From NCBI RefSeq assembly GCF_053078305.1, contig NZ_CP166879.1: a stretch of 64,000 nucleotides of DNA; one strand, given 5' to 3'. Positions 1 through 12,709 of the stretch are shown in pieces; the first letter of the stretch is position 1, and the number at the start of each line of letters is the position of its first letter. The notes beneath the pieces were generated by a model. That model was not told where the DNA came from, searched no databases, and saw only the letters and a program-made list of their open reading frames with translations. Position numbers and translations under genes: made by a program.

Positions 1-150
1 ACCCGTGGGGCCAATCAGTTTTACAGCGTCATGGAACGGCTGAAGATGCTCGATTCCCTGCAGGCAACACAGCTTCAGTCGGCCATTGTTAAAGCCATTT
101 ATGTCTATCATCTCCCCGTAGTTGTCCGCATCGTTCGCCAACTCCACTGA
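1..150 (+). CDS. B: phage portal protein (lambda gpB-like), upstream part; 5' partial at window edge and interrupted after codon at nt 96, then 18 foreign codons to a stop
   Basis: Frame 1 reads ...FYSVMERLKMLDSLQATQLQSAIVKA, continuous with MYAATIESELD at 11936; matches remembered lambda portal. Confidence 0.75.
   Translation, partial: TRGANQFYSVMERLKMLDSLQATQLQSAIVKAIYVYHLPVVVRIVRQLH
91..98. other. left junction core repeat AAAGCCAT (putative attL core; extended 12/13 match to nt 103)
   Basis: Identical 8-mer at 11930-11937 exactly where the portal reading frame is broken and resumed. Confidence 0.6.
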
Positions 151-227
151 AACCCTTGCTGCGGCTGGAATGTCGTTTTCCATACTTTTGATGACCGTTC
201 ATCACACTTCCAGGTTTTCGCGGTTTT

Positions 228-280
228 GTGTATTGCAATGTGTATTGCAAATTGGCGATCGGGATGGGTGTGTATTGCAA
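228..280 (+). repeat. three direct copies of GTGTATTGCAA upstream of int (putative arm-type recombinase binding sites)
   Basis: Copies at 228-238, 240-250, 270-280; two more copies at 11835-11857 near the right end. Confidence 0.55.
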
Positions 281-298
281 ATCTCTTGAGGGCTGTTA

Positions 299-1540
299 AT
301 GGCTATTGAAAACAAACTCAGTGACAAACTGTTAAAGAGTCTTGTCGGAAAACGGCAGGACAAACAAAAAACAATAGCGGATGGGCGCGGGTTGTCTGTG
401 CGTGTAAGCATGGTTGGGGGGATCAGCTTTGTTTTTTACTATCGTCTTGGTGGCAGGGAATCCCCTCCGGTATGGCTTACACTTGGGCGCTATCCTGATA
501 TGTCTCTTGCAACAGCCAGGCGCATGCGTGATCAGTGCCGTGAGTGGCTGGCTGAAAATCTGGACCCCCGCAGGCAAATAAAACTTGCCGCCGAAAAAAC
601 CATGCAACCAGTGACCGTAAGGGATGCGCTGTTTTACTGGTACGACAATCACGCCACAACAGCCAGAAAAGAGCATGAATATTTAATAAAACGATTTGAA
701 AAGCATATCTTCCCCTATATCGGTGATATGGCTATAGAACAGTGCAAATTACACACATGGCTTGCCGTCTTTGACAGGATCAAAAAAAATGCGCCTGTTA
801 TGTCTGGTGCAATTTTTCTTGATATCAAACAGGCGTTGCGTTTTTGTCGCGTCAGGCAATACATCGCGTGCGATCCCTTTGGCGATATTAACGTAAGTTA
901 TGTCGGGCGCTCATCCGGTATAAGGGATCGCGTTCTTAATATCAATGAAACAGCGGATGTATGGTCTTATGCTTACGGTAATAATTTGCTGACACTGTCA
1001 TCAATACATAACAGAAGAATAATGGTTATCTGCCTGGTGTTTGGTTGCCGTCAGCAGGAGGCGAGGTTATCCACATGGGACGAATGGGATTTAAAAAACT
1101 GGGTATGGACAGTCCCAAAAGAGCACAGCAAAAACAAGGAGGCCATAGTAAGGCCTGTTCCTGACGGCATAAAACAATGGCTCGTTAATCTTTACGCAGA
1201 AACAAAAAATCGCGGTTATGTTGTCGGTTGTGCTTTGCAAAGGGCGACAATAACAGGGGCTGCAAACAGAATATGCAGGCGTCTTGGTCATGATATTAAT
1301 GGCTTGTGGTGCATACATGATTTCAGGCGCACATTTTCCACTGCGCTTAATGATATGGGGGCGGATCCTTATATTGTCGAACTTCTTTTAGGTCATAAAG
1401 TGAAAGGGGTTGCCGGTGTTTACAATAAAAGCAGGCATATAAAGAAAAAACTTGAGGTGCTTAATATGTGGGTTAATTACCTTAATACGATAGCAGGATT
1501 TAACAACAACGTTATCGAGCTTAATAAAGAGGTGGTGTGA
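299..1540 (+). CDS. int: tyrosine-type site-specific integrase (P4-like family)
   Basis: 413 aa; N-terminal arm-binding-like region, C-terminal HDFRRT...LLGH...GVAGVY catalytic motifs; position at element end. Confidence 0.85.
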   Translation: MAIENKLSDKLLKSLVGKRQDKQKTIADGRGLSVRVSMVGGISFVFYYRLGGRESPPVWLTLGRYPDMSLATARRMRDQCREWLAENLDPRRQIKLAAEKTMQPVTVRDALFYWYDNHATTARKEHEYLIKRFEKHIFPYIGDMAIEQCKLHTWLAVFDRIKKNAPVMSGAIFLDIKQALRFCRVRQYIACDPFGDINVSYVGRSSGIRDRVLNINETADVWSYAYGNNLLTLSSIHNRRIMVICLVFGCRQQEARLSTWDEWDLKNWVWTVPKEHSKNKEAIVRPVPDGIKQWLVNLYAETKNRGYVVGCALQRATITGAANRICRRLGHDINGLWCIHDFRRTFSTALNDMGADPYIVELLLGHKVKGVAGVYNKSRHIKKKLEVLNMWVNYLNTIAGFNNNVIELNKEVV

Positions 1541-1541
1541 T

Positions 1542-1799
1542 ATGGCAATTTATTCTCTTGTTGATGAAAACGATTTGCGCACAATGAAGGACATTGATCG
1601 GTTCATTCGTGAAAAAGAGTGCATAGCACTTACCACGCTGGCAAACTCAACACGCTGGAAAATGGAGCAGGCAGGTAAATTCCCGCGACGTATCAAGATC
1701 GGTGAACGTGCGGCAGGGTATCGACTTTCAGAGGTTCAGGCATGGATCCGTGGTGAGTGGCATCCTGGATGGAAACCTGGAAAAACAAAACAGCAATAA
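1542..1799 (+). CDS. alpA: AlpA-family phage transcriptional regulator / excisionase-like HTH protein
   Basis: 85 aa, overlaps int stop, pattern typical of AlpA (CP4-57 regulatory protein) family. Confidence 0.7.
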   Translation: MAIYSLVDENDLRTMKDIDRFIREKECIALTTLANSTRWKMEQAGKFPRRIKIGERAAGYRLSEVQAWIRGEWHPGWKPGKTKQQ

Positions 1800-1853
1800 C
1801 CAGTAAATAACGCCCCTCATCAAGAGGGGTTTTTGTCTATAGGGTAAAACGCG

Positions 1854-2432
1854 ATGAATAAAAATATTGCCGTGACGGGCAAGGGGTACGCTCGTCCAGT
1901 GAAAAAATTCTGTGATATTCGTGATCTTGTCGTTCTGCGCTTTGATGGTGTGAGCGTTCGCGTGGTGTATGTGAACGGCGATCCGTGGTTTGTTGCCGTT
2001 GACGTGTGCGCTGCGCTGGAAATTGTTGATCACAAGGTTGCGTTACGCCGTCTCGATGATGATGAAAAGGGGGAGTGTTTAATACCCACCCCAGGTGGAA
2101 ATCAAACAATGCGAACGGTATGCGAGTCAGGGTTCTACAAACTAATCGCCAGAAGTCGGAAAGCTGTTACTCCTGGCACGTTCGCCCGTCGTTTCAGTAA
2201 CTGGGTATTCAGAAATGTGATACCAGGTATCAGAAAAACGGGGGCTTATGGTATCCCGTGGGGGGCATTACAGGATTTTTCCCGCCGTAAAGAGCAATAT
2301 CAAATAAGTGCCAGCGAGAAGGGGAGGGAGCTACAGGCATGTAAGCGCAAAAAACGTGAACTGGAGGAAGAAGAAAAAAGGCTGATACGTGAATATCAGC
2401 CTGAGTTTTACTTTGGTGAGCGTATTCAGTAA
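1854..2432 (+). CDS. Bro-N domain protein (phage antirepressor-like)
   Basis: 192 aa; N-terminal FDGVSVRVVYVNGDPWFVAVDVCAALEI resembles Bro-N/antirepressor domain. Confidence 0.55.
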   Translation: MNKNIAVTGKGYARPVKKFCDIRDLVVLRFDGVSVRVVYVNGDPWFVAVDVCAALEIVDHKVALRRLDDDEKGECLIPTPGGNQTMRTVCESGFYKLIARSRKAVTPGTFARRFSNWVFRNVIPGIRKTGAYGIPWGALQDFSRRKEQYQISASEKGRELQACKRKKRELEEEEKRLIREYQPEFYFGERIQ

Positions 2433-2770
2433 CCACACGCGGTGCTGATTATACGGTACATCGTGTTAACCGAGAAGCTACCCACCAGCAAGGCAAAATC
2501 TTCTGCTAAAAAATGACATATGGCCAGTCGTCCGGAAAGCATGAAATTTTACAAAAATGGAAAATGAAGATTTTTATTGTGCTGGTGGGTAAAAACAAAA
2601 AGCGCCCCGTTGCCGGAGCGCCCTTGTGAACAATTAACCTGCTGCGAAAAAATTGGATCAGTGCAGGGAAATTATATCAACTGTGTGAAGAAGCGCCACA
2701 ATTGCCAGTTTAGCTTTGCGGCGAACGCGTCAATAAAGAATATTCTTTCTTTAAATTCTGTTTGTGTATT

Positions 2771-2800
2771 TTTTCGTAGTTTTTCGTAGTTTTTCGTAAG
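2771..2800. repeat. tandem repeat TTTTTCGTAG x3
   Basis: Three perfect 10-bp units in the intergenic gap between convergent genes. Confidence 0.6.
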
Positions 2801-2895
2801 GAGAAAGAGCGGCGCGTATGCACCGCTAAGGAGTTTATTTTCATGACTTATGCAGCTTTCAATCTTAGCACCGCCGTAGCTGGTGGACAAGGCTA

Positions 2896-3123
2896 TCAGC
2901 CAGGCGGTCGGTTTTTAGTGGCTTTTAACCGCCGTGGGTATTTCTCGACAAAATCTTCAAGGGCAAATTTTTCTGGTGGCACTAAGCGCGGCGCTGGTGG
3001 TGGTATTTTTGTTCTGGTTAGTTCTTCCTCAAGTCTGGCGCAGGCTTCTAACTGCCTTTGCCGGATGATTTCATCATCTTGCGTTTGCGTGTCTTGTATT
3101 GGTGATAGTGTGTTGTTGGTCAT
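2896..3123 (-). CDS. hypothetical protein
   Basis: 75-aa ORF co-directional with RHH gene; preferred over overlapping low-complexity + strand ORF. Confidence 0.35.
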   Translation of the reverse strand: MTNNTLSPIQDTQTQDDEIIRQRQLEACARLEEELTRTKIPPPAPRLVPPEKFALEDFVEKYPRRLKATKNRPPG

Positions 3124-3180
3124 GATACTGCCCTGTAAAGCAATGCGCCGGAGTACCTCACGCCACGGCGCTGATAGTGA

Positions 3181-3486
3181 TTATTCTGATTCTTGGGTCT
3201 TGCGACGCTGGAGTTCTTCGCGTGCAACGGTGACAAGTTGCCCGATTTCTTCCGCTGCTTTGATGCCGATTTGTTCGACCTTAGCCAGAGCATCCAGTGA
3301 AGACACAAGGGGATTTTCTCCGCTGCCTTCTGCCTGGCGGCGGGCGATTTCACCGCGCATGGCGGTTACTATGAATCCGGCGTTGCTTTCACCGTCCAGT
3401 TTTACGGATTCCATGCCTTCAATAACATCATGCGGGATCCGAGCTGTCAGTGATTGTGATTTTGCGTTTTTTGAACCTGTAGCCAT
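3181..3486 (-). CDS. ribbon-helix-helix (CopG/Arc-like) DNA-binding protein, putative element repressor
   Basis: SLTARIPHDVIEGMESV beta-strand/helix pattern; ATG at 3486 with GAGAGGA RBS; divergent from rightward operon. Confidence 0.5.
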   Translation of the reverse strand: MATGSKNAKSQSLTARIPHDVIEGMESVKLDGESNAGFIVTAMRGEIARRQAEGSGENPLVSSLDALAKVEQIGIKAAEEIGQLVTVAREELQRRKTQESE

Positions 3487-3700
3487 CTGTAATCCTCTCA
3501 ATGAAAGTGTAAGACAATATACACATAAAAAGTCTTACATAAAAGCATTGACATGTAAGCCACCTATAAATAAAGTTACTTACACCTTGTTAATGCAAGG
3601 TGCAGAAACGACGAAACCCGGCAGTGCGCTAACACTAACCGGGCTTCTAACCACCAACGATAGAAAGCGTATCGAGGTAGCTATGAGAAATCATACCACA
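3487..3700. promoter_or_regulatory. divergent promoter/operator region with repeated TGTAAGACA / GTCTTACAT / ACATGTAAG motifs
   Basis: AT-rich intergenic region between leftward RHH gene and rightward operon, repeated half-sites. Confidence 0.45.
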
Positions 3701-4045
3701 CACCCGCAAGGGCGGGACTCGCACAACCTGAATAAATACATCTGGCGTTTTCTGGCCCGAAAAAACCAGTTGATCGCCAGTGTCGAAAATAGCTATGATT
3801 CCCGCGCACCTCATAAAACGGGTGCCGGGATTGGCGTCCTGGGCAAAACTGAAGCGCATAACACGCGCCCCGCGTGTTTTTTTGTGCCGCATAGTCACAC
3901 CTTATCAATGGTGGGCTGTACGGGGGCGGAGCAATCCGCGCCGGTTTCTTCAGTGTCCGGTTACGCCAACCCTGTACAGTCCGCCACCAGCGAAATTGGC
4001 GTTTCCGGTGGCGGTTATCTTAACCACACTGAGGAGGCTGCCAAC

Positions 4046-4237
4046 ATGGCTACTATCCCTACCCTTGTACATTCTCAAACCGCCTTTCTCTGGCGCTTTA
4101 TCATCTTTGGCGCGTCAGACCATCAAATCATCCACGTCACCGCCTGGACGGAACGCGAAGCGCGTAGCCGTTGCCCGTCCGGTTGTGTTGCTGTATTCGC
4201 CGCCCGTATTCGTCAGGAGGTGTGCCATGTGCAATAA
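4046..4237 (+). CDS. Icd-like small protein (P4 cell-division-inhibitor family), tentative
   Basis: 63 aa, GAGGAGG RBS at 4031-4037; resembles remembered Icd-like proteins of P4-type elements. Confidence 0.4.
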   Translation: MATIPTLVHSQTAFLWRFIIFGASDHQIIHVTAWTEREARSRCPSGCVAVFAARIRQEVCHVQ

Positions 4238-4484
4238 AACCACACCGGACGCAGCCGCCGCGCTCACTACACTGATGCACGCGCTGATTGATATTTCTGT
4301 TATTGCTGACAGGGCGCATAAGCACGCCACCAGTGAAACAGAATATGCCGGGGCTTTCGTTCCTCATTCGCTGGCGGTTATGCAACTTAGTGCTGATATG
4401 GCGCTGAATGAGGCCAAAGCTATCCTGATTTCTGATTGTGAAAATGGGGGGGGGTTATGCGTGATGATCGTTTTAATGCCCTGA
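4227..4484 (+). CDS. hypothetical protein
   Basis: ATG overlapping previous stop, CAGGAGG RBS; operon context. Confidence 0.45.
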   Translation: MCNKTTPDAAAALTTLMHALIDISVIADRAHKHATSETEYAGAFVPHSLAVMQLSADMALNEAKAILISDCENGGGLCVMIVLMP

Positions 4485-4678
4485 AACAGGAGTTTGATGG
4501 TGCGCCTGATGATGCAGGTGATGCGCTTTCGTCAATATCCGAACTGATAAGAGTGGCCTTTTTCTTACTTGGCACGAAAGAATATAAATCAACTGGAATA
4601 GACGTACTGAATATTACTGCTGATTATGCGGAATATATGGCAGAAGTGGATTTAAGAAAGATAACGGACAGGGGGTAA
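4457..4678 (+). CDS. hypothetical protein
   Basis: 73 aa, G-rich RBS upstream, overlaps previous gene end. Confidence 0.45.
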   Translation: MRDDRFNALKQEFDGAPDDAGDALSSISELIRVAFFLLGTKEYKSTGIDVLNITADYAEYMAEVDLRKITDRG

Positions 4679-4679
4679 T

Positions 4680-4913
4680 ATGCGTGATATTTACCACGAA
4701 ACAATAGACCGCGCATTTAGTGCCCTTGCTTACGCTGAAGGTATGTACGAAATATTGCAAATGTGTCTGGAAACATTTGGCGATAATGAGCGTGATGTAA
4801 AGAAGGCGCGGATTATTAAATCACTGATAACTCTCCTTGAACCTGTAATAACAGAGTTGCAGGAAATAGACTTATTGCACGACAGATATAACGAACAGCA
4901 CACCGGAGAATAA
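4680..4913 (+). CDS. hypothetical protein
   Basis: 77 aa, AGGGGG RBS, tightly packed operon. Confidence 0.45.
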   Translation: MRDIYHETIDRAFSALAYAEGMYEILQMCLETFGDNERDVKKARIIKSLITLLEPVITELQEIDLLHDRYNEQHTGE

Positions 4914-4918
4914 AAATA

Positions 4919-5218
4919 ATGAAACTTAAATATCCTGGCTTAACTGCCAGTGGCAACACTCACCCTAAATTTACGCGCGGTGATATTTACCGCGACCAGT
5001 ACGGCGGCACGGTAATGATTAAGGGCGTGGCGGGACGGTGCGTAACTTACCGCCGTGAAGGCTACGAATATGATTGCGTGATGCCTGTTTATCAGTTCCG
5101 GCGTGATTTTTCTCTGGTACAGACCGCGCCGCATAACGTGCCCACCAGCAACGCCAGGGCACGGGCAAACATCCAGAAGCTGAAAACCATGATTAACGGA
5201 TTCAGGGGTAAAAAATGA
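4919..5218 (+). CDS. hypothetical protein
   Basis: 99 aa, GGAG RBS, stop overlaps next start. Confidence 0.45.
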   Translation: MKLKYPGLTASGNTHPKFTRGDIYRDQYGGTVMIKGVAGRCVTYRREGYEYDCVMPVYQFRRDFSLVQTAPHNVPTSNARARANIQKLKTMINGFRGKK

Positions 5219-6624
5219 AACTGGCACCGAACGTAAAACGATTACCGAAAGATAAATACACCGAAGCGGTTATTTTTGCGGGTATTGATGCTCACTCATT
5301 CGCAGAGCATTACATCATTGCACAGGCCAAAAAAGCAGGCGATCCAGTCCCTCCCGTTTATCTGGGGCGTTATCAGTTAAGCGAACTGGATAACCTCCAG
5401 ATTGTTGATGATGGGCGATACAGGGCGACGGTGATACGCGCCGGAAATATTGAAGAGCCGCAGCTGTTAACCATCGCCACGAAACTGGCGAGCGCCGGAG
5501 TCCAGGAGGCGCGGCTACTTTCTGAAAATTTCGAATTGCTGGAGGAATGGAGCGACCAGCTTCCACGGCTTAGGGAGGCATGGGAACGCGGGGAAAGCCT
5601 GGTCATGAAAAAAATTCCCCAGCGAAAAACCACGCTACCGATGAGCGTTGGATCTACCGGATACGACACACAGCTTGATTACGTGGTAAAGGGGATTATT
5701 CCGGCATCGTCGCTTTGCAGCATATACGGGGCGAGCGGTTCCTATAAATCATTCCTTGCCGGATCGTGGGCGTGTCACGTTTCCACGGGCCGCCAGTGGG
5801 GAGGCCGCAGGGTGGCGCATGGCGCTGTTCTCTATGTGGTTGGTGAAGGCGGTATCGGCGTTCCGCGTCGTGTAAAAGCCTGGGAGGTTGTGCACGGTGA
5901 GCAGGTGAAAAATCTGTATCTGGTAAACCGTCCCATCTTTCCGGCTGTCCCGCTTGATGTTGATGAACTGGTTATTGCTGCCAGTCAGGTGGAGAGGGAA
6001 ACGGGTAAACCTGTTCGCATGATTATTCTGGACACGCTGGCGCGTTGCTTTGGCGGCAATGATGAAAATGACTCCCGCGACATGGGGGCATTTATCCGTG
6101 GTTGTGACGAGCTTAAACGGCGCACAGGGGCTACGGTGCTGGTGGTTCACCATTCCGGCAAGGATGAAACAAAGGGGGCGCGTGGTTCCAGTGCATTTCG
6201 TGCATCACTGGACGCTGAATACCGGATACGCAGGGAGGACGCAGGAAGCGAAGCGCTGGTTATCTCATGCACCAAAATGAAGGACGCGGAGGAACTCAAA
6301 GAGGCTGCCTATGATTTGCGGGTGGTGGAGCTTTTTACCGACGCTGACGGGGAGTTAATTACGTCGCTGGTGGTGGTGGATAAGCCGCGCCCTCCCGTTG
6401 AACTGGAGCGCATCGAGGAGGCAGGCAACAAGACGGAAAACCATACCGCGCTATGGGGGTGCATCCGTTCACGCACACAGAACGGCGACAAGTGCACGAT
6501 CCCGCTGTTACGTGACGATATGAAAAAGCTGGGGTATGACACAAAACACCTTAAACGATGGTTAGCCAAACTGGAAAAAGACGACGTGATCTACATTGAC
6601 GGTGATGATGTAGGACCACTGTAA
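5215..6624 (+). CDS. replication initiation protein, RecA-like ATPase (AAA_25/RepA-type) with C-terminal DNA-binding domain
   Basis: 469 aa; Walker A-like GASGSYKS, Walker B MIILD, LVVHHSGKD motif; iterons immediately downstream. Confidence 0.7.
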   Translation: MKLAPNVKRLPKDKYTEAVIFAGIDAHSFAEHYIIAQAKKAGDPVPPVYLGRYQLSELDNLQIVDDGRYRATVIRAGNIEEPQLLTIATKLASAGVQEARLLSENFELLEEWSDQLPRLREAWERGESLVMKKIPQRKTTLPMSVGSTGYDTQLDYVVKGIIPASSLCSIYGASGSYKSFLAGSWACHVSTGRQWGGRRVAHGAVLYVVGEGGIGVPRRVKAWEVVHGEQVKNLYLVNRPIFPAVPLDVDELVIAASQVERETGKPVRMIILDTLARCFGGNDENDSRDMGAFIRGCDELKRRTGATVLVVHHSGKDETKGARGSSAFRASLDAEYRIRREDAGSEALVISCTKMKDAEELKEAAYDLRVVELFTDADGELITSLVVVDKPRPPVELERIEEAGNKTENHTALWGCIRSRTQNGDKCTIPLLRDDMKKLGYDTKHLKRWLAKLEKDDVIYIDGDDVGPL

Positions 6625-6830
6625 AAAGTGGGCATTAAAAGTGGGAAAGGTGGGCGATTTAACGTAATTTTAACAAAATCACCCACTTTCCCACGTGTAT
6701 ATATCCCAAAAAGTGGGCACTAAAAAAATACCTATGAAACAAGATGATATAAATCCCAAACTTCCCACGTTGGACGAAGTGGGAAAACGTAAAAAGTGGG
6801 CGAAAAAAGTGGGTAGAGGTGGGCGAATGA
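6625..6830. repeat. iteron array, putative replication origin of the satellite
   Basis: About ten copies of AAGTGGG(C/A) / GGTGGGCGA in both orientations directly downstream of the rep gene. Confidence 0.7.
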
Positions 6831-7078
6831 CTCAAAAACACAGAGACAGAACAGAGCCAAAATATAAAGCGTTAGACATGACAGAGCACGCTTTAAAGGT
6901 GGCAATCAGGGTAATAGACCGCCACACGCGGGAAGGATACGCGAAGGAACATCCCGACCTGATAAGCGCATTCATGACCACAGCGGCGGCAAACTTTGCC
7001 ACGCTGACAGAACGGGAGATAGCCGAAGCGGAACAGGTAACAACCATCAACGTTAAAACCGGAGAGGTGGAATCATGA
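6827..7078 (+). CDS. hypothetical protein
   Basis: 83 aa from ATG at 6827 (upstream part of track ORF lies in the iterons). Confidence 0.45.
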   Translation: MTQKHRDRTEPKYKALDMTEHALKVAIRVIDRHTREGYAKEHPDLISAFMTTAAANFATLTEREIAEAEQVTTINVKTGEVES

Positions 7079-7485
7079 CAGCACAGATAGCCGCTTACGG
7101 GCGGCTGGTGGACGACCCGCAGGTAAAACAAACCAGCAAGGGCACACCGATGACGCTGGCGCGTATGGCGGTATCTCTGCCATGCAGCCAGGCACAGGAC
7201 GGGCAGGCTACGTTATGGCTATCAGTGATGGCATTTGGTAAGCAGGCCGACTTCCTGGCTAAACATCAAAAAGGCGATGTTGCCAGCGTATCCGGCACGA
7301 TGCAGGTAAGCCAGTGGACCAGACAGAACGGGGAAACGCGGCAGGGTTATCAGGTTATTGCAGACAGTGTAATCAGTGCCCGTGCTGCCCGTCCTGGCGG
7401 GAGCAGACGTACAACCACAGGCACACAGGGTAATCAGCCACCAGCGGGAGGCGATGACCCTTACGGTGACGGTATTCCGTTCTGA
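7075..7485 (+). CDS. ssb: single-stranded DNA-binding protein
   Basis: OB-fold pattern and acidic C-terminal tail DDPYGDGIPF typical of SSB. Confidence 0.75.
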   Translation: MTAQIAAYGRLVDDPQVKQTSKGTPMTLARMAVSLPCSQAQDGQATLWLSVMAFGKQADFLAKHQKGDVASVSGTMQVSQWTRQNGETRQGYQVIADSVISARAARPGGSRRTTTGTQGNQPPAGGDDPYGDGIPF

Positions 7486-7495
7486 GGGGGTGACG

Positions 7496-7768
7496 ATGGT
7501 ACATGACCGCATAGCGGAGGAACTCGAGGCAAAAGGCTTTTACCGGAGGGCGGCGGCGCGATGGGGTGAAGTTATGCAGCTGGTGGAGACAGACAAGGAA
7601 CGGCATCAGGTTACGATGCGACGGCTGGAATGTTCCAGGAAGGCACAGAGGCCACCGGAGCCGCCGGATAACTTCGGAGACCTGAAAAAAGCAGTAGATC
7701 GCACTTATGCCGAAATGGGTATGGATGGTGTAAGCGATGAAATATGGCGTAATTACCCAGACAGCTAA
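7496..7768 (+). CDS. PerC-family transcriptional regulator
   Basis: 90 aa; IAEELEAKGFYRRAAARW motif resembles PerC family. Confidence 0.5.
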   Translation: MVHDRIAEELEAKGFYRRAAARWGEVMQLVETDKERHQVTMRRLECSRKAQRPPEPPDNFGDLKKAVDRTYAEMGMDGVSDEIWRNYPDS

Positions 7769-7774
7769 TCAACA

Positions 7775-7796
7775 GCCGGAGAAATCCGGCTTTTTT
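7775..7796 (+). terminator. rho-independent terminator (GCCGGAGAAATCCGGC + T-run)
   Basis: Perfect hairpin then TTTTTT; identical hairpin recurs at 10049-10071. Confidence 0.65.
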
Positions 7797-8007
7797 GTAC
7801 CCAAAAAAAGCCCGATAAGTACAGGAGGCATCTTATCGGGCTTTTGCATATGAGGTTTTTTTGGTGCACTGACACACATGATCGGGGTAATCATTTCATA
7901 ATTTGCAACACAACTCAACATCATTGCACAAAATGCAATCCTGATTATAATCAGAGCTGGATGAACATCCAGTTCTGATTTTTTAAGTCAAAGAGGAATT
8001 TCTTACT

Positions 8008-8214
8008 ATGGCTGAAGAGAAAAAAGGCGGTGTTTCGGTGTACATAAGCCCCGAAATCGTGGAGGTGCTCAAGCAGCGCCACAAAAAAAACTATGAGGCT
8101 GGCGTAGCGGCTGGACTGGATCCGCTGATGACGCCGGAGCCGTCGATAGGTTCACTTGTGCGCTCTTATTTACTTGCGGCGCTTGGGATGCATAAAAATT
8201 ATGGTGGTGAATAA
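8008..8214 (+). CDS. hypothetical protein
   Basis: 68 aa, AAGAGG RBS, first gene of capsid operon. Confidence 0.45.
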   Translation: MAEEKKGGVSVYISPEIVEVLKQRHKKNYEAGVAAGLDPLMTPEPSIGSLVRSYLLAALGMHKNYGGE

Positions 8215-9269
8215 TGACAGTAAAAGCAATGGCACTTACAACTAACCAGCTTTTCGCGTACCTGAATCGCGGGGATATTGCAGAATTTAAATTCAGTCCG
8301 CTGTTTACCACGCTGTTTTTCCCGAACGTGGCGACCTTCAACACCCAGAACATCATGCTGGACACCCTGGACATTGAAGAGGTTACGATGTCAGCGTTCT
8401 GTTCGCCTATGGTGGGTAGTCAGGTCCAGCGCGATAAAGGGTACGAAACCAGCACGATTAAACCAGGCTACATGAAACCCAAACACGAAATCGATCCAAC
8501 AAAAACCATCATGCGCATGGCTGGAGAAGATCCGGCACAGCTTAACGACCCTACCTACCGCCGTATGCGCCTGATTACTGGCAACATGCGCCGCCAGATA
8601 AACGCCATTAAAGCGCGCGTGGAATGGCTGGCGGTGAATGCGATAACGACCGGAAAAAACATCATTGAGGGCGAAGGCATAGAACGCTATGAAATCGACT
8701 GGAAAATACCGGAAAACTGCATCATAGAGCAGGCCAAGGGTAAAAAATGGTCCGAGCATGATAAAGATATTTACGATCCAATCTATGACATCGAACTATA
8801 CGCAGATCAGGCAGGTTGCCCCGCCAACGTCATGATTATGGGCGCTGAGGTATGGCGCACGTTACGCAGCTTTAAAAAATTCCGCGAACTGTACGATCTT
8901 TCCCGTGGTTCAGAATCCGCCGCAGAACTGGCCTGTAAAAACCTGGGTGAAGTAGTGAGCTTTAAAGGCTATCTGGGCGATATTGCCCTTATCGTCTATT
9001 CCGGCAAATACACTGACAGCGACGGTACCGAAAAATATTTCCTTGAGCCTGATTTGCTGGTCCTGGGTAACACCAACAATAAAGGGCTGGTGGCCTATGG
9101 TGCGATTATGGATCAGGAAGCGGTAAGAACGGGCGCAACGCAAAACATGTTCTACCCGAAAAACTGGATTGAAGACGGCGATCCGGCGATTGAGTACGTT
9201 CAGACGCACAGCGCACCGCAGCCGGTACCGGCAGATATTCGCAAATTTGTTACCGTCAAAATTGCTTAA
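8214..9269 (+). CDS. major capsid protein, lambda gpE-like paralog encoded by the satellite
   Basis: 351 aa; clear similarity to helper E at 14646-15674 (PGYVKPKHE, EDPAQLNDP, VVSFKGY, VLGNT motifs). Confidence 0.85.
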   Translation: MTVKAMALTTNQLFAYLNRGDIAEFKFSPLFTTLFFPNVATFNTQNIMLDTLDIEEVTMSAFCSPMVGSQVQRDKGYETSTIKPGYMKPKHEIDPTKTIMRMAGEDPAQLNDPTYRRMRLITGNMRRQINAIKARVEWLAVNAITTGKNIIEGEGIERYEIDWKIPENCIIEQAKGKKWSEHDKDIYDPIYDIELYADQAGCPANVMIMGAEVWRTLRSFKKFRELYDLSRGSESAAELACKNLGEVVSFKGYLGDIALIVYSGKYTDSDGTEKYFLEPDLLVLGNTNNKGLVAYGAIMDQEAVRTGATQNMFYPKNWIEDGDPAIEYVQTHSAPQPVPADIRKFVTVKIA

Positions 9270-9280
9270 CGGGGGATTCT

Positions 9281-9616
9281 ATGGACACTCCATACATTGA
9301 GTTATTTGCAGGCAGTCAGCAGGTATCCACGACGCTGGTACATTTTGCCGCTGATGCTGGCGTTATTCAGGAATTTACCCCGCTGATGCTGGCGGACAAT
9401 GGCGAGTTTAAGCCGTGGGATGGTCAGGAATCTGGCAAGGCTGTTTATCTGACCTCGTACCCCGTGGACACGTCAAAGCAGAAATCAGCACAGTGTTACA
9501 AGACGGGGATATTTAATATCGCCGCCGTAAACTGGCCTGAGAGCGCCGACACTGACGCGAAAAAATGCGCCGCCTTTGCGGGTTCTGGCGTATCCGTTCA
9601 GCCGCTGGCGCGATAA
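9281..9616 (+). CDS. head decoration protein, lambda gpD-like paralog
   Basis: 111 aa; TPLMLA...WDGQ...YKSG/TGIF...WPES...AFAG pattern shared with helper D at 14241-14588. Confidence 0.75.
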   Translation: MDTPYIELFAGSQQVSTTLVHFAADAGVIQEFTPLMLADNGEFKPWDGQESGKAVYLTSYPVDTSKQKSAQCYKTGIFNIAAVNWPESADTDAKKCAAFAGSGVSVQPLAR

Positions 9617-9628
9617 GCAGGGGAAACG

Positions 9629-10042
9629 ATGGCAACGAATGAAAGCATCATGGCGCTACCGCTGGCGAGTAAATTTAAAGCAGAAGCGCGGGCAATGGCT
9701 GACAGAGGTTTATCAACCTACGAGGCCGTATATCAACTCAACAAACTGGAAGAGCAGGACAAGCCGCGCGCTGATGCGATTATGGCGCTTCATGAACATA
9801 ACGACTATCAGCCGCTGTTACGTGCAATGGCAAACGTGCCATGTATTAGCGTCGATAATGCTCGTGAAATCCTGAACATGACCATAGAGCAGGAGCGCCC
9901 AAAGGTTGCGCCGGAGCTTACCGCAGCCTTTGAAAACTTTATGGACATGCACAGCCCGAAAGCCGTATCACCCGGCATGGCATACGACGGCAGAAACCAG
10001 GGCGATGAAGGCGACGTCGATCGCATACTGAAAACCATCTGA
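9629..10042 (+). CDS. scaffold protein, Nu3-like (scaffold domain only, no protease domain)
   Basis: 137 aa; C-terminus AAFENFMDMHSPKAV...DEGDVD parallels helper C/Nu3 C-terminus ALFEHFMANHSPAAV...ADGDAD. Confidence 0.65.
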   Translation: MATNESIMALPLASKFKAEARAMADRGLSTYEAVYQLNKLEEQDKPRADAIMALHEHNDYQPLLRAMANVPCISVDNAREILNMTIEQERPKVAPELTAAFENFMDMHSPKAVSPGMAYDGRNQGDEGDVDRILKTI

Positions 10043-10048
10043 CATAAG

Positions 10049-10071
10049 GCCGGAGAAATCCGGCTTTTTTT
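10049..10071 (+). terminator. rho-independent terminator after capsid operon
   Basis: GCCGGAGAAATCCGGC hairpin followed by TTTTTTT. Confidence 0.65.
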
Positions 10072-10130
10072 ACGGGTCCTTTCCGGCATATGGACCCGTT
10101 ACGGGGCGGCGACCTCGCGGTTTTTCGCTA
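10072..10130 (+). other. cos site 1 (cosN GGGCGGCGACCT at 10104-10115 with cosQ-like and cosB-like flanks), rightward orientation
   Basis: Exact lambda 12-nt cohesive-end sequence and lambda-like flanks ACGGGTCCTTTCCGG...CGCGGTTTTTCGCTATTTATGA. Confidence 0.8.
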
Positions 10131-10248
10131 TTTATGAGCTTTTTTCGGGTGCTGGTGGTGGTTTTGTTGTTCGCTCTATCTCTATGAATAAAAAGGGAAA
10201 GATAAAACCAATACACCAACCTGAAACATTACTTAAGTGGGGATATTG

Positions 10249-10791
10249 ATGAAATCGCACCTGATGAACAAAAAAAACATGGCGCAAAGCTGCCGTGTAA
10301 GTGCGACAGCGTTCGACAAGTGGGGAGTGACTCCCGTTGAACGTAAAGGACGCGAGGCTTTTTACGATGTTGCCAGCGTGATAGACAATCGGGTAAGCAA
10401 TGCAATTAACCAGGTTACAAACGACAAAGGCGAGATTGATGATGATGAACTCTTACGAGTCAGGATCAGATTACTGACCGCCCAGGCTGAGGCGCAGGAA
10501 CTTAAAAACGAGCGCGATCGCGGTGACGTAATTGATACTGAGTTTTGCCTGTACGCGCTTTCAAAGCTGGCGAGTCAGATTTCTTCAATCATGGACAGTT
10601 TGCCGCTTACCATGCAAAGGCGCTTCCCGCAGATTACTCCCGCTATGCTGGATGGGCTTAAAAGGGAAGTGGTTAAAGCCTGTAATGCCAGTGCCACAGT
10701 TGCCGACAACCTCCCGAAGATACTGGCTGATTACCTGATGGAAACTACCGGAGACGTACCGGAGAAGTTGCTACAGAAGAAAGGCGAGTAA
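10249..10791 (+). CDS. terminase small subunit, lambda Nu1-like
   Basis: LTAQAEAQELKNERDRGDVIDTEFCLYALSKLASQISSIMDSLPLTMQRRFP parallels remembered lambda Nu1; start uncertain (10237/10249/10264). Confidence 0.75.
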   Translation: MKSHLMNKKNMAQSCRVSATAFDKWGVTPVERKGREAFYDVASVIDNRVSNAINQVTNDKGEIDDDELLRVRIRLLTAQAEAQELKNERDRGDVIDTEFCLYALSKLASQISSIMDSLPLTMQRRFPQITPAMLDGLKREVVKACNASATVADNLPKILADYLMETTGDVPEKLLQKKGE

Positions 10792-10962
10792 CAGACGCGC
10801 AATTATTGAACAAAAGTAAGGCCCGACATGAAATCACCCAAAAATGCCTTTTTCATGCGTTTGTATGTCTGACCTTTTACGGTTTCGATATTATAAAAAA
10901 CAAATAGTTACGCTCGAGAGGTACCGACACGCATTTTTCAGGAAAATTTTCATAAACAGATA

Positions 10963-11015
10963 AAAACCGCGAGGTCGCCGCCCCGTAACGGGCCATAATT
11001 CCAGGAAGGACCCGA
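10963..11015 (-). other. cos site 2 (cosN reverse complement at 10972-10983), inverted relative to cos site 1
   Basis: AGGTCGCCGCCC plus lambda-like flanks on the minus strand. Confidence 0.75.
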
Positions 11016-11047
11016 CGACACCAGGCTATCAGAACGATGAGGGCACA

Positions 11048-11329
11048 ATGACAGAAGCCGAACTACTGGGATTAATCCGCTACGTTACCGGAATCAGCCA
11101 GCAGCATGACGAACAGGCCACGCAGCCGGACAGCGTGACCGCTGAAAATTATGCGCGTGTTGTTGCTGAGGTGATGCGCCGTGATGGTATCCAGCTTAAT
11201 GATGCAGATATGCGCGACATACGGATCCGCGTTCTTGAAATGCTGGCCTACCGTCGCCGCGTGCAGACGTACAGGGAAAAAGCAAAAATAACGTACCAGT
11301 GGAAGAAGCCGGAGCGATTACGGCGGTAA
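11048..11329 (+). CDS. hypothetical protein
   Basis: 93-aa ORF, last gene before the right junction. Confidence 0.4.
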   Translation: MTEAELLGLIRYVTGISQQHDEQATQPDSVTAENYARVVAEVMRRDGIQLNDADMRDIRIRVLEMLAYRRRVQTYREKAKITYQWKKPERLRR

Positions 11330-11834
11330 CTTGCTGATATTCCCGATAACGCAAAATTGCGCTCTGTCCTAACCCGTTGATATTTTCGGGAACAGCCAAC
11401 GGCTGAGGCCGGAACAACGATTATCTTTCAGATAGTCAGAGCTACGAAATTTTCGTAGTTTAATTACTCGCCAGTTTATCGTTAACTCGTTGATATTTTC
11501 GGTAACCTCAATTTGAGGAGATCGGAAACATAACCCTTCACATTCTGAATGGTTATAATGACCACTCAGACCATCAAGGCAACCATAACGAACATCGTTA
11601 CGGTTGGAGCTTTTACCCCACTGGGGGGAAGGTGCACATCTGGATCATCATTACCGTGATCAAGGGTATGTAAAACCCACCAGCCTGATTAACTGTTAAC
11701 CGGAAAAAAGCCAGGTAGCCAATCTCGATATGGGGATCCCCATATCGACATTAACGCCCCCTAGAACTGCGCATATCTGCATATAAAAACATCCACCAGC
11801 TTTATGACGGATGCCGCTCATCTGATAAATAATC

Positions 11835-11857
11835 GTGTATTGCAATGTGTATTGCGA
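11835..11857 (+). repeat. two direct copies of GTGTATTGCAA/GTGTATTGCGA near right end (arm-type sites)
   Basis: Same motif as the triplet at 228-280. Confidence 0.55.
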
Positions 11858-11929
11858 CTCCTTTAAACGATAGGTTTGAGCATTCGTAATGTACTGTTTT
11901 TAAATTTTATTTTTTCCTGTCTTTTCATA

Positions 11930-11937
11930 AAAGCCAT
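11930..11937. other. right junction core repeat AAAGCCAT (putative attR core)
   Basis: Identical to 91-98; portal frame resumes here. Confidence 0.6.
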
Positions 11938-12709
11938 GTATGCAGCGACGATTGAAAGTGAACTTGATACCGAAAAGGCCTTTGAATATATCGCCGGTGC
12001 GCCGCAGGGGCAGAAGGATAATCCGCTTATTAATATTCTGGATAAGTTCTCCACCTGGTATGACACGAATATCGTGACGCTGGGCGGTGTCAAAATTCCG
12101 CACCTTTTCCCCGGTGATGATCTGAAACTTCAGACCGCGCAGGATTCAGACAATGGATTTTCGGCGCTTGAACAGGCGCTGCTGCGGTATATCGCCGCCG
12201 GTCTTGGCGTTTCCTACGAACAGTTGTCCCGTGATTACTCGAAGGTCAGTTATTCAAGTGCCCGCGCCTCCGCCAATGAGTCGTGGCGCTATTTTATGGG
12301 ACGACGAAAATTTATTGCAGCCCGGCTGGCCACGCAGATGTTTTCCTGCTGGCTGGAAGAGGCACTTCTTCGGGGGATTATCCGTCCGCCACGGGCACGT
12401 TTTGATTTTTATCAGGCGCGTTCAGCCTGGTCGCGGGCAGAGTGGATTGGCGCAGGAAGAATGGCCATTGACGGGCTCAAGGAGGTCCAGGAATCAGTGA
12501 TGCGCATTGAGGCCGGACTGAGCACGTATGAGAAAGAGCTGGCGCTGATGGGTGAGGATTATCAGGACATTTTCCGCCAGCAGGTCAGGGAATCCGCAGA
12601 GCGGGAAAAAGCCGGACTCTCACGTCCGGTGTGGATAGCGCAGGCGTATCAGCAGCAGATAGCAGAGAGCCGCAGGCCGGAAGAGGAGACAACACCACGT
12701 GAGACGTAA
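11930..12709 (+). CDS. B: phage portal protein (lambda gpB-like), downstream part resuming after the insertion
   Basis: KAMYAATIESELD...YIAAGLGVSYEQLSR...MAIDGLKEVQE resembles remembered lambda portal C-terminal half. Confidence 0.8.
   Translation, partial: KAMYAATIESELDTEKAFEYIAGAPQGQKDNPLINILDKFSTWYDTNIVTLGGVKIPHLFPGDDLKLQTAQDSDNGFSALEQALLRYIAAGLGVSYEQLSRDYSKVSYSSARASANESWRYFMGRRKFIAARLATQMFSCWLEEALLRGIIRPPRARFDFYQARSAWSRAEWIGAGRMAIDGLKEVQESVMRIEAGLSTYEKELALMGEDYQDIFRQQVRESAEREKAGLSRPVWIAQAYQQQIAESRRPEEETTPRET

What the first reader, a model, noticed from the sequence alone, without database searches (positions are those of the whole stretch)
6625..6830. Dense iteron array directly downstream of the replication ATPase gene
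About ten copies of AAGTGGG-type motifs in both orientations within ~200 bp, overlapping the start region of the next small ORF, directly after a RecA-like replication protein with a C-terminal DNA-binding domain. This is the rep-then-ori arrangement of phage-inducible islands and supports autonomous replication of the element.
Basis: seen in the sequence. Interest (0 to 1): 0.55.

Follow-up and report, generated by a model that had tools for sequence, protein, structure and literature searches.

The report
Replication origin of a phage satellite
The repeat cluster is very probably the replication origin of a small phage-parasitic island (a PICI embedded in a lambda-like prophage), where the island's own helicase binds through a C-terminal winged-helix domain; this is a known kind of origin.

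Summary
The 202-bp gap 6625-6826 carries 11 GTGGG cores, 8 forward and 3 reverse; 9 fit ARGTGGG. Shuffled sequence never gives more than 3 ARGTGGG per 200 nt.

The array starts right after the stop codon of a 469-aa helicase (Pfam AAA_25, RecA fold). It ends 3 nt before the ATG of the next gene.

The element (about 104-11942) has the gene order of the E. coli satellite EcCICFT073. In that satellite the equivalent rep-ori segment was shown by experiment to drive plasmid replication. Here the element is inserted in the portal gene of a lambdoid prophage, a published configuration (HE-PICI).

Comparative evidence is strong. Relatives keep the 11 sites at fixed positions. The repeat sequence follows one residue at the start of the predicted recognition helix:
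- His445 goes with GTGGG.
- Asn goes with GTGAG.
- This holds whatever the rest of the protein looks like.

Unrelated rep alleles in the same slot carry their own sets of 11 repeats. An easily melted AT-rich spacer lies between the repeat sets.

Verdict: a rep-cognate iteron origin. It is a new member of a known kind and of modest interest. Function has not been tested for this allele.

The parts
4919..5218 (+). DUF4222 gene, always found directly upstream of rep, whatever the rep allele
   Evidence: phrog_285. Annotated as DUF4222 in relatives carrying RepA, DUF927 or primase-type rep.
5215..6624 (+). rep: 469-aa helicase-initiator built from three modules (N-terminal domain 1-136, RecA-fold AAA_25 core, C-terminal winged helix)
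   Evidence: Pfam AAA_25 at residues 151-318, E 7e-43. Full-length match to phrog_2850. RefSeq name 'helicase RepA family protein'. Foldseek finds RadA, Rad51 and Twinkle. The three-module mosaic is shown.
6412..6621 (+). Codons for the Rep C-terminal winged-helix domain (aa 400-469)
   Evidence: pLDDT about 90. Helices 408-422, 429-438 and 446-455, then a beta hairpin at 459-468. Foldseek top hits are DtxR/IdeR, MarR-type (MepR, MexR), Fur and ArsR DNA-binding domains, with probability 0.97-0.99 and rmsd 2.5 A over about 63 residues.
6547..6579 (+). Codons for His445 and the predicted recognition helix (aa 445-455). His445 (CAC, 6547-6549) is the residue that covaries with the repeat sequence.
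   Evidence: His goes with GTGGG in 33 distinct loci and Asn with GTGAG in 25. The link is independent of the rest of Rep.
6625..6826 (.). Proposed origin of replication: the whole rep-to-next-gene intergenic region
6626..6654 (+). Left iteron set: three direct repeats (AAGTGGG, AAGTGGG, AGGTGGG)
   Evidence: The positions are conserved to the base in all classes.
6655..6681 (.). AT-rich spacer 1 (78% A+T), flanked by convergent repeats
6682..6696 (-). Two inverted iterons (CCCACTT, CCCACGT)
6695..6704 (.). GTGTATATAT, conserved in all iteron classes; function unknown
   Evidence: Column identity about 0.9-1.0 across 52 aligned origins.
6711..6717 (+). Central single iteron AAGTGGG
6718..6761 (.). 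AT-rich spacer 2 (73% A+T), the candidate DNA unwinding element. It contains the class-independent conserved AAAAAAATACCTATGAAACA (6722-6741).
   Evidence: The 30-step window 6720-6750 is at the 99.7th percentile of helix instability in the 64-kb window. Conservation is shown.
6764..6770 (-). Inverted iteron (CCCACGT)
6777..6823 (+). Right iteron set: four direct repeats. The last one (6817-6823, AGGTGGG) lies 3 nt upstream of the ATG of the next gene, at the ribosome-binding position.
6827..7078 (+). 83-aa gene of unknown function (phrog_1231), conserved downstream of the origin in many relatives with RepA-, DUF927- and primase-type rep alleles (absent in L004 and L088)
   Evidence: Annotated from the ATG in relatives.
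7075..7485 (+). Single-stranded DNA-binding protein gene of the satellite
   Evidence: TIGR00621 at 57.5 bits, above the cut-off of 53.95. phrog_44.

Best explanation
The array is the replication origin of a PICI-type phage satellite, and it is matched to the helicase-initiator encoded just upstream.

Proposed mechanism:
1. Rep is made after the satellite is induced.
2. Rep binds the 11 short repeats (consensus aaAaGTGGG) through its C-terminal winged-helix domain. His445, at the start of the recognition helix, reads the sixth base of AAGTGGG.
3. The repeats lie in sets around two AT-rich spacers. Binding on both sides distorts and opens the least stable spacer (6718-6761).
4. The RecA-fold helicase part of the same protein loads itself onto the opened strands. 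The satellite's own SSB coats them.
5. Priming and synthesis are left to host enzymes, and possibly to functions of the helper prophage in which the satellite sits.

Shown here:
- The anatomy of the array.
- The identity of the domains.
- Fixed site positions across relatives.
- Covariation between the helix residue and the repeat sequence.
- Exchange of the C-terminal domain and origin as one unit.
- Homology of the overall layout to an experimentally proven origin.

Inferred, not shown:
- Binding of Rep to the repeats.
- Melting of the spacer.
- Self-loading of the helicase.
- The source of primers.
- That about 11-12 sites reflect two hexamers.
For: **1. Clustering.** There are 9 ARGTGGG and 11 GTGGG in about 200 bp, against shuffle maxima of 3 and 6.

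**2. Position and architecture.** The array begins at the first base after the rep stop codon. Repeat sets flank AT-rich spacers, and spacer 1 has convergent repeats on its two sides. This is the published PICI origin layout (PMC6092414; PMC9371898).

**3. Instability.** The window 6720-6750 is at the 99.7th percentile of helix instability in the 64-kb window.

**4. Synteny with a proven origin.** EcCICFT073 has the same gene order: DUF4222, rep, gap, small ORF, ssb, PerC, capsid, decoration, cos, rpp-like. It carries 11 copies of its own repeat, GGTAGAYA, in the same gap.

**5. Each rep allele has its own repeat in that gap.**
- DUF927 type: 11 copies of AACCCGCA.
- Primase type: 11 copies of YCTACC.
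- Yokenella RepA type (57% identical Rep): 12 copies of GTGCG.
- Source.

**6. Fixed positions.** In 82 RepA-type loci the 11 site positions are fixed while the repeat sequence changes in concert.

**7. Covariation with the helix.**
- His at helix position 445 gives a mean of 9.9 GTGGG and 0.4 GTGAG (33 distinct loci).
- Asn gives 0.4 and 7.4 (25 loci).
- A second link: the E-M..F helix goes with G after the core, and the D-T..L helix never has G there.

**8. The repeat type follows the C-terminal domain, not the rest of Rep.**
- L017 has a 100% identical core but an Asn helix, with 0 GTGGG and 8 GTGAG.
- L035-L043 have only a 69% identical core but the same helix, with 11 GTGGG.
- Both states occur in all three core lineages.

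**9. Fold.** The C-terminal domain is a confident winged helix, and residue 445 caps helix 3.

**10. Selection.** Within the window's class, repeat columns are 98.1% conserved against 88.8% for the other columns.
Against: - No experiment exists for this allele. The proven case, EcCICFT073, uses an unrelated helicase and DNA-binding module; only the N-terminal 126 aa are shared, at 47% identity.
- Rep has no recognisable primase domain, so replication may depend on host or helper functions.
- Foldseek E-values for the small C-terminal domain are only about 0.03.
- The ATPase core of the full-length model is of low confidence.
- No DnaA box or IHF site was found within one mismatch. This fits a self-contained initiator but removes one classical origin hallmark.
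- The outer repeat sets point the same way rather than towards each other.
- The covariation counts come from related sequences linked by recombination, so the number of independent events is small: at least three helix backgrounds carry both His and Asn forms.
Confidence: 0.85

Rival explanations
1. The repeats are operator sites where Rep, or another satellite regulator such as AlpA or the PerC-like protein, controls expression of the downstream genes (small ORF, ssb, late genes). They would not be an origin.
For: The last repeat lies 3 nt from the ATG of the next gene, on its ribosome-binding position. All genes run in one direction through the region. Covariation with the Rep helix shows binding specificity, not replication.
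Against: No sigma-70-type promoter or terminator was found in 6400-7100. Eleven sites spread around two easily melted spacers is more than an operator needs. The binding protein is a helicase. The homologous gap in EcCICFT073 is a proven origin. The two roles can also coexist, so this reading is more an addition than a replacement.
Confidence: 0.06
2. The array is a packaging, partition or recombination site (pac/cos, centromere-like, or an integrase arm site) rather than an origin.
For: Clustered short repeats in both orientations also occur at centromere-like sites and at recombinase arm sites.
Against: The satellite's cos sites are elsewhere: exact lambda cosN 12-mers lie at 10104-10115 and 10972-10983, flanking the terS/rpp-like gene, as in EcCICFT073 (PMC6739421). 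The integrase-arm-like repeats are a different sequence, GTGTATTGCAATGTGTATTGC, at 228-248 and 11835-11855. No ParA or ParB gene was found. The repeat sequence follows the helicase's C-terminal domain.
Confidence: 0.02
3. The origin is a decayed remnant. The satellite is now copied only passively, as part of the helper prophage and the chromosome.
For: The satellite is embedded in a prophage. For the embedded satellite 11capE, little or no replication was seen after excision in two of three experiments (PMC10111431).
Against: Rep is full length and keeps its Walker motifs. All 11 sites are intact and identical in number and position to the majority of relatives. Repeat columns are more conserved than spacers. 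An identical Rep and a near-identical origin recur in independent viral contigs.
Confidence: 0.07

Closest known systems
EcCICFT073 pri-rep-ori module (Gram-negative PICI; Fillol-Salom et al. 2018, PMC6092414)
   Same: The gene order around the origin is the same: DUF4222, rep, gap of about 200-290 bp with 11 repeats, small ORF, ssb, PerC-like, capsid, decoration, two cos sites, rpp/terS-like. The N-terminal 126 aa of the two Rep proteins are 47% identical. That origin was shown to drive plasmid replication.
   Different: The EcCICFT073 Rep is a 584-aa 'DNA primase family' protein. Its helicase and DNA-binding parts are unrelated to those of the window's Rep, and its repeats are GGTAGAYA rather than AAGTGGG. 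I could not establish whether the AAA_25 allele is among the four Pri-Rep alleles listed in that paper.
SaPI Rep and ori (Staphylococcus aureus pathogenicity islands; PMC9371898)
   Same: The origin lies immediately 3' of rep. It has 6-12 short repeats in sets around an AT-rich region. A self-loading helicase recognises the repeats through a C-terminal winged-helix domain, and specificity is matched between Rep and origin.
   Different: SaPI Reps are AAA+ (SF3/MCM-like) helicases. This Rep is a RecA-fold AAA_25 protein. The two are functional analogues, not homologues.
Helper-embedded PICIs (HE-PICI, e.g. 11capE; Mageeney et al. 2023, PMC10111431)
   Same: The satellite is integrated in a late gene of a lambdoid prophage and points the same way as that gene. 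Here the gene is the portal gene. In relative L001 it is terL. C4 and isrK RNAs lie in the regulatory zone.
   Different: That paper's Replication category lists the Primase, SSB and DUF5906 families and mentions no RepA/AAA_25 helicase. It does not dissect the origin.
RSF1010 (IncQ) RepA helicase, PDB 1g8y
   Same: It belongs to the same Pfam family, AAA_25. It is the only PDB sequence match to Rep, and a weak one (E 0.01, residues 153-323).
   Different: From general knowledge, in IncQ plasmids a separate protein, RepC, binds the 20-bp iterons, and RepA has no DNA-recognition domain. Here the helicase itself carries the winged helix and the repeats are 7-9 bp.
Iteron plasmids (pPS10, F, R6K, RK2)
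   Same: Repeated initiator-binding sites lie next to an AT-rich region, and initiator and sites are matched.
   Different: From general knowledge, those initiators are WH1-WH2 proteins without helicase activity, their iterons are 17-22 bp, and they need DnaA boxes and host DnaB. No DnaA box is present here.

Membership tests
PICI-type rep-ori module (SaPI / EcCICFT073 layout) | The origin lies immediately 3' of the replication initiator gene | tested here: met
   The first repeat starts 2 nt after the rep stop codon (6624), and the array fills the gap 6625-6826.
PICI-type rep-ori module (SaPI / EcCICFT073 layout) | Sets of short repeats flank an AT-rich region | tested here: met
   There are 3 + 2 repeats around spacer 1 (78% A+T) and 1 + 5 around spacer 2 (73% A+T, 99.7th percentile of instability).
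PICI-type rep-ori module (SaPI / EcCICFT073 layout) | [quoted passage not shown] | tested here: met
   Spacer 1 has three forward repeats on its left and two reverse repeats on its right. Around spacer 2 only one convergent pair is present, and the two outer sets share an orientation.
PICI-type rep-ori module (SaPI / EcCICFT073 layout) | The initiator is a helicase with a C-terminal winged-helix DNA-binding domain | tested here: met
   AAA_25 core. The C-terminal domain model has pLDDT 83-90, and every top fold match is a winged-helix DNA-binding domain. This rests on a predicted, not a solved, structure.
PICI-type rep-ori module (SaPI / EcCICFT073 layout) | Rep and origin are a matched pair | tested here: met
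   Tested by comparison only. Helix residue His or Asn goes with GTGGG or GTGAG in 58 distinct loci, and the C-terminal domain and origin are exchanged together across three core lineages.
PICI-type rep-ori module (SaPI / EcCICFT073 layout) | The rep-ori segment replicates autonomously on a plasmid | not testable with these tools
   Shown only for EcCICFT073 and for SaPIs.
SaPI Rep protein family (homology) | AAA+ / SF3-type helicase core | tested here: not met
   The core is RecA-fold AAA_25. Fold matches are RadA, Rad51 and Twinkle. The protein works like a SaPI Rep but is not a member of that family.
Gram-negative PICI / helper-embedded PICI | Integrase, AlpA-like regulator and rep all in one direction; size 10-20 kb; capsid and terS/rpp-like genes; no tail or lysis genes | tested here: met
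   int 299-1540; AlpA-like 1542-1799 (phrog_2790); rep; capsid 8214-9269; decoration 9281-9616; terS-like 10237-10791. The element is about 11.8 kb, and no tail or lysis family was found inside it.
Gram-negative PICI / helper-embedded PICI | Carries helper-type cos sites | tested here: met
   Exact GGGCGGCGACCT at 10104-10115 (+) and 10972-10983 (-). The same pair is present in EcCICFT073 (PMC6739421).
Gram-negative PICI / helper-embedded PICI | Integrated inside a lambdoid prophage late gene and pointing the same way | tested here: met
   Joining 1-103 to 11943 onward restores one reading frame. The joined sequence matches intact portal genes over 100% of its length in one piece, at 98.3% identity. 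Prophage head genes follow.
Gram-negative PICI / helper-embedded PICI | Helper-dependent induction, packaging and transfer | not testable with these tools
   Needs experiments.
Classical iteron plasmid origin (RepA / pi / TrfA type) | 17-22 bp iterons, a WH1-WH2 initiator without helicase, and adjacent DnaA boxes | tested here: not met
   The repeats are 7-9 bp, the initiator is a helicase, and no DnaA box was found within one mismatch.

The most novel reading that the evidence does not exclude
A single residue at the start of the Rep recognition helix (His445 or Asn) sets whether the initiator reads GTGGG or GTGAG. Neighbouring helix residues set the next base. If so, this family of self-loading RecA-fold helicase-initiators holds a simple, naturally permuted recognition code. 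That code would create mutually orthogonal satellite replicons. It could explain how several such satellites coexist in one cell (up to 6 matching places per genome), and it could be used to design orthogonal origins. The recurring count of 11-12 sites in unrelated rep alleles might reflect one site per subunit of a double hexamer.
Probability: 0.5. Interest if true: 0.45.

Novelty: new member of a known kind. Interest (0 to 1): 0.3.

Why it matters
The finding assigns a function to an unannotated 200-bp gap and to a gene that RefSeq names only 'helicase RepA family protein'. DNA matching this rep-ori query turns up in 1479 of 5426 complete E. coli genomes (114 cover at least 80% of it), many of them Shiga-toxin-producing strains.

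It shows that this satellite family swaps its replication module as a unit made of DNA-binding domain plus origin. It also gives a concrete residue-to-base prediction that can be tested.

It does not change how these origins are understood. The rep-then-ori design, the winged-helix reading of repeats and the embedding in helper prophages are all published.

Tried and rejected
- **Phage collection.** A blastn search of 5215-7100 gave no match, so the module belongs to chromosomal satellites and not to deposited phage genomes.
- **PDB by sequence.** The only hit was a weak one to RSF1010 RepA (E 0.01).
- **Full-length Rep model.** It is of low confidence in the ATPase core (pTM 0.44), so I did not interpret the core beyond its RecA fold. 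The fold of the N-terminal domain was not resolved.
- **Promoter and terminator scan** of 6400-7100 found nothing.
- **DnaA-box and IHF scans** found nothing within one mismatch.
- **Rfam** finds no RNA family in the gap.
- **Single-strand folding** of the gap gives z = -2.6. The inverted repeats explain this, so I did not treat it as a separate feature.
- **PADLOC** finds no defence family in the accessory zone.
- **cfPICI.** I first suspected a capsid-forming PICI. I rejected this because the element has no terL, portal or protease of its own; those genes belong to the surrounding prophage.
- **Pri-Rep alleles in Fillol-Salom 2018.** I tried to learn whether the AAA_25 allele is among the four listed. 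The supplement gives only accession numbers, and a guessed region of E. coli 042 missed the island.
- **Technical point.** Loci L002-L007 were not available to scripts, so their gaps were read by eye and pasted in.

Full report
**1. The observation**

The sequence between the stop codon of the 469-aa ORF (5215-6624) and the ATG at 6827 is 202 bp long. An exact search finds nine ARGTGGG sites at 6626-6823, out of only fourteen in the whole 64 kb.

Counting the GTGGG core gives eleven sites:
- Forward: 6628, 6641, 6650, 6713, 6779, 6796, 6809, 6819.
- Reverse: 6682, 6690, 6764.

The total count in the window is not above chance (14 against 17 expected), but the clustering is. The largest count in any 200 nt is 9, against a mean of 1.6 and a maximum of 3 in 200 dinucleotide-preserving shuffles. 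For the 5-mer core it is 11, against 4.0 and 6.

The stated overlap with the next ORF depends on a mechanical GTG start at 6695. In annotated relatives the gene starts at the ATG that corresponds to 6827. The array is thus intergenic, and only its last copy (AGGTGGG, 6817-6823) covers the ribosome-binding position.

**2. Anatomy of the array**

Numbering from the first base after the rep stop codon, the cores lie at 4, 17 and 26 (forward), 58 and 66 (reverse), 89 (forward), 140 (reverse), and 155, 172, 185 and 195 (forward).

Two AT-rich spacers separate the groups:
- 6655-6681 is 78% A+T.
- 6718-6761 is 73% A+T, against 47% for the window.

The stretch 6720-6750 is at the 99.7th percentile of nearest-neighbour helix instability for the whole window.

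The region has no sigma-70-type promoter or intrinsic terminator. It has no DnaA box or IHF site within one mismatch, and no Rfam family.

**3. The upstream protein**

- **Core.** The ORF matches Pfam AAA_25 at residues 151-318 (E 7e-43) and matches phrog_2850 over its full length. RefSeq calls its relatives 'helicase RepA family protein'. Its only PDB sequence match is the RSF1010 RepA helicase, and that match is weak (E 0.01). An AlphaFold model is poor in the core (pTM 0.44), but Foldseek still finds RadA, Rad51 and Twinkle. 'RecA-like' is therefore right.
- **C-terminal domain.** The last 70 residues are modelled with pLDDT near 90, both in the full-length model and alone. They form three helices (408-422, 429-438, 446-455) followed by a beta hairpin. 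Nearly all of the top fifty PDB matches, including every one of the best ones, are winged-helix DNA-binding domains: DtxR/IdeR, MepR/MexR, Fur and ArsR. Probabilities are 0.97-0.99 and rmsd is 2.5 A over about 63 residues, but E-values are only about 0.03, as is usual for so small a domain.

**4. The element that carries the array**

The surrounding genes are:

| Coordinates | Gene |
|---|---|
| 299-1540 | integrase |
| 1542-1799 | AlpA-like excisionase/regulator |
| 1854-2432 | BRO-N antirepressor |
| end of ORF 2843-4237 | Icd-like protein |
| 4919-5218 | DUF4222 |
| 5215-6624 | rep |
| 6625-6826 | the array |
| 6827-7078 | 83-aa ORF |
| 7075-7485 | SSB |
| 7376-7768 | PerC-like protein |
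| 8214-9269 | major capsid homologue |
| 9281-9616 | decoration protein |
| 9629-10042 | scaffold-like protein |
| 10237-10791 | small-terminase-like protein |

C4 and isrK RNAs lie at 3806-3991.

EcCICFT073, the E. coli satellite studied by experiment, has the same order of genes. The element is therefore a Gram-negative PICI.

The element is also embedded in a prophage. Joining window 1-103 to 11943 onward restores one reading frame. The joined sequence matches uninterrupted portal genes of free lambdoid phages over its whole length in one piece (PhiR5_1 at 98.3%, phage 21 at 95.5%). Prophage head genes follow. This 'helper-embedded PICI' arrangement has been described (PMC10111431). A close relative sits in terL of another prophage.

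**5. Comparative evidence that the array is matched to Rep**

(a) *Different rep alleles carry different repeats in the same gap.*

| Rep allele | Example | Repeat | Copies |
|---|---|---|---|
| DUF927 type | L005 | AACCCGCA | 11 |
| Primase type | L006, L007, EcCICFT073 | YCTACC (GGTAGAYA) | 11 |
| RepA type, 57% identical | Yokenella L088 | AAGTGCGCG (GTGCG core) | 12 |

The Yokenella array has the same layout as the window's.

(b) *Site positions are fixed while the repeat sequence changes.* A scan of IMG/VR gave 80 loci with RepA-type proteins 74-100% identical to the window's. Across them the eleven positions are conserved to the base, and the repeat sequence changes in concert at all copies.

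(c) *The change follows the helix.* The helix region reads GY[DE]xK[HN]xxRWLxKLE.
- With His at residue 445 the gap holds on average 9.9 GTGGG and 0.4 GTGAG (33 distinct loci).
- With Asn it holds 0.4 and 7.4 (25 loci).
- His/Asn pairs occur in three helix backgrounds: DTKHLKRWLA / DVKNMRRWLA, EMKHFRRWLY / EMKNFRRWLY, and EMKHFSRWLR / EMKNFSRWLR.
- A second link concerns the base after the core. It is G in 70-77% of sites for E-M..F helices and never G for the window's D-T..L helix.

(d) *The repeat type does not follow the rest of the protein.* Rep is a mosaic of three modules, and the repeat type follows only the last one.
- L017 has a core 100% identical to the window's but an Asn helix, with 0 GTGGG and 8 GTGAG.
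- L035-L043 have a core only 69% identical but the window's helix, with 11 GTGGG.
- Both states occur in all three core lineages.

(e) *Selection.* Within the window's class, repeat columns are 98.1% conserved against 88.8% for the other columns (13 distinct origins).

Residue 445 caps the third helix of the winged-helix fold, the usual recognition helix. From general knowledge of protein-DNA contacts, Asn favours adenine and His favours guanine, which fits the direction of the change. That last point is inference.

**6. Mechanism**

The best reading is the published PICI and SaPI scheme (PMC6092414; PMC9371898). Rep binds the repeats through its winged helix on both sides of an AT-rich spacer. 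It opens the spacer and loads its own helicase ring. The satellite's SSB covers the single strands, and host enzymes prime and extend.

What is shown is the anatomy, the domain identities, the covariation and the homology of the layout to a proven origin. What is inferred is binding, melting, self-loading and the source of primers. Rep has no recognisable primase domain. Its N-terminal 126 residues are 47% identical to the N-terminus of the EcCICFT073 Pri-Rep, so that domain probably serves a function common to all alleles, which I could not identify.

**7. Rivals**

- **Operator role.** Control of the downstream genes is possible in addition to the origin role, since the last repeat sits on the ribosome-binding site. 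It does not explain eleven sites around easily melted spacers bound by a helicase.
- **Packaging.** The cos sites are elsewhere, at 10104-10115 and 10972-10983. Two cos sites are already known for EcCICFT073.
- **Integrase arm sites.** The arm-type repeats have a different sequence.
- **Decayed remnant.** This is unlikely because the gene and all eleven sites are intact and under selection.

**8. Comparison with known systems, and novelty**

The array works like a SaPI or EcCICFT073 origin, and the element is a member of the Gram-negative PICI family. The Rep protein is not a homologue of SaPI Rep (AAA+), nor of the EcCICFT073 helicase module. It is a RecA-fold AAA_25 helicase fused to a winged helix.

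I could not determine whether this allele is one of the four 'Pri-Rep' alleles listed in 2018. The 2023 survey of embedded satellites does not list an AAA_25 family among its replication genes.

I file the finding as a new member of a known kind. The residue-to-base covariation and the unit exchange of C-terminal domain plus origin are the only parts I did not find in the papers I read.

**9. Verdict**

- Observation: confirmed.
- Confidence in the origin reading: 0.85.
- Interest: 0.3.

Noticed in passing
window 1-103 and 11930-12709 (element about 104-11942): The satellite interrupts the portal gene of a phage-21/lambda-like prophage. Joining the flanks restores the reading frame, and the joined sequence matches intact portal genes of free phages. 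The near-repeat AAAGCCAT[T/G]TATG lies at 91-103 and 11930-11942. This is the published 'helper-embedded PICI' configuration (PMC10111431). Relative L001 sits in terL.
   Followed up: yes
window 10104-10115 (+) and 10972-10983 (-): Two exact lambda cosN 12-mers (GGGCGGCGACCT), with cosQ-like flanks and in inverted orientation, bracket the terS/rpp-like gene 10237-10791. EcCICFT073 has the same pair (L089 7559-7570 and 8298-8309), known as cos1 and cos2. Why there are two is an open question in PMC6739421.
   Followed up: partly
window 3806-3882 and 3904-3991: Rfam isrK (66 bits) and C4 antisense RNA (77.6 bits) lie in the regulatory zone, pointing to P4-like RNA immunity. The mechanical 464-aa ORF 2843-4237 that spans them has a low-complexity, Ser/Cys-rich translation and no family hit in its first 266 aa. 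It is probably not a gene apart from its Icd-like end.
   Followed up: partly
window 5215-5622 (Rep aa 1-136); L089 2242-2620: The Rep N-terminal domain is shared with the otherwise unrelated EcCICFT073 Pri-Rep (47% identity, E 5e-26). It occurs in two alleles, about 97% and about 43% identical, that combine freely with three core alleles. Its function and fold were not identified. It is modelled confidently as an alternating beta-alpha domain.
   Followed up: partly
window 6695-6704 and 6722-6741: GTGTATATAT and AAAAAAATACCTATGAAACA are conserved across all iteron classes, although they are not iterons. They may be part of the unwinding element or a site for a host factor. Neither matches a DnaA box or an IHF site.
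   Followed up: partly
L076, L079, L081 (Asn helix) and L070, L074 (His helix): A few relatives have mixed origins: 2-3 GTGGG with 5-6 GTGAG, or 7 GTGGG with 2 GTGAG. They may be recombinants or intermediates in a switch of specificity.
   Followed up: no
L004 2507-2984 (E. coli ETEC4090): This relative has a 478-bp gap after rep, with 12 GTGAG cores spread over about 400 nt, which looks like an origin plus a partial second copy. Different genes follow (ProQ/FinO, PerC).
   Followed up: no
window 7775-7796 and 10049-10070: Two identical 22-nt terminator-like hairpins, GCCGGAGAAATCCGGCTTTTTT, lie after the PerC-like gene and after the scaffold-like gene.
   Followed up: no
window 10235-10241 and 10318-10324: Two more AAGTGGG copies, 83 nt apart, lie at the start of the terS-like gene. 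They are the only other copies inside the satellite. They may be chance or secondary Rep sites.
   Followed up: no
protein P0119: A 680-aa relative fuses a zinc-ribbon/Toprim primase (PF08273, PF13362) to the same AAA_25 helicase. This suggests that the primase-less form in the window relies on an external primase.
   Followed up: no
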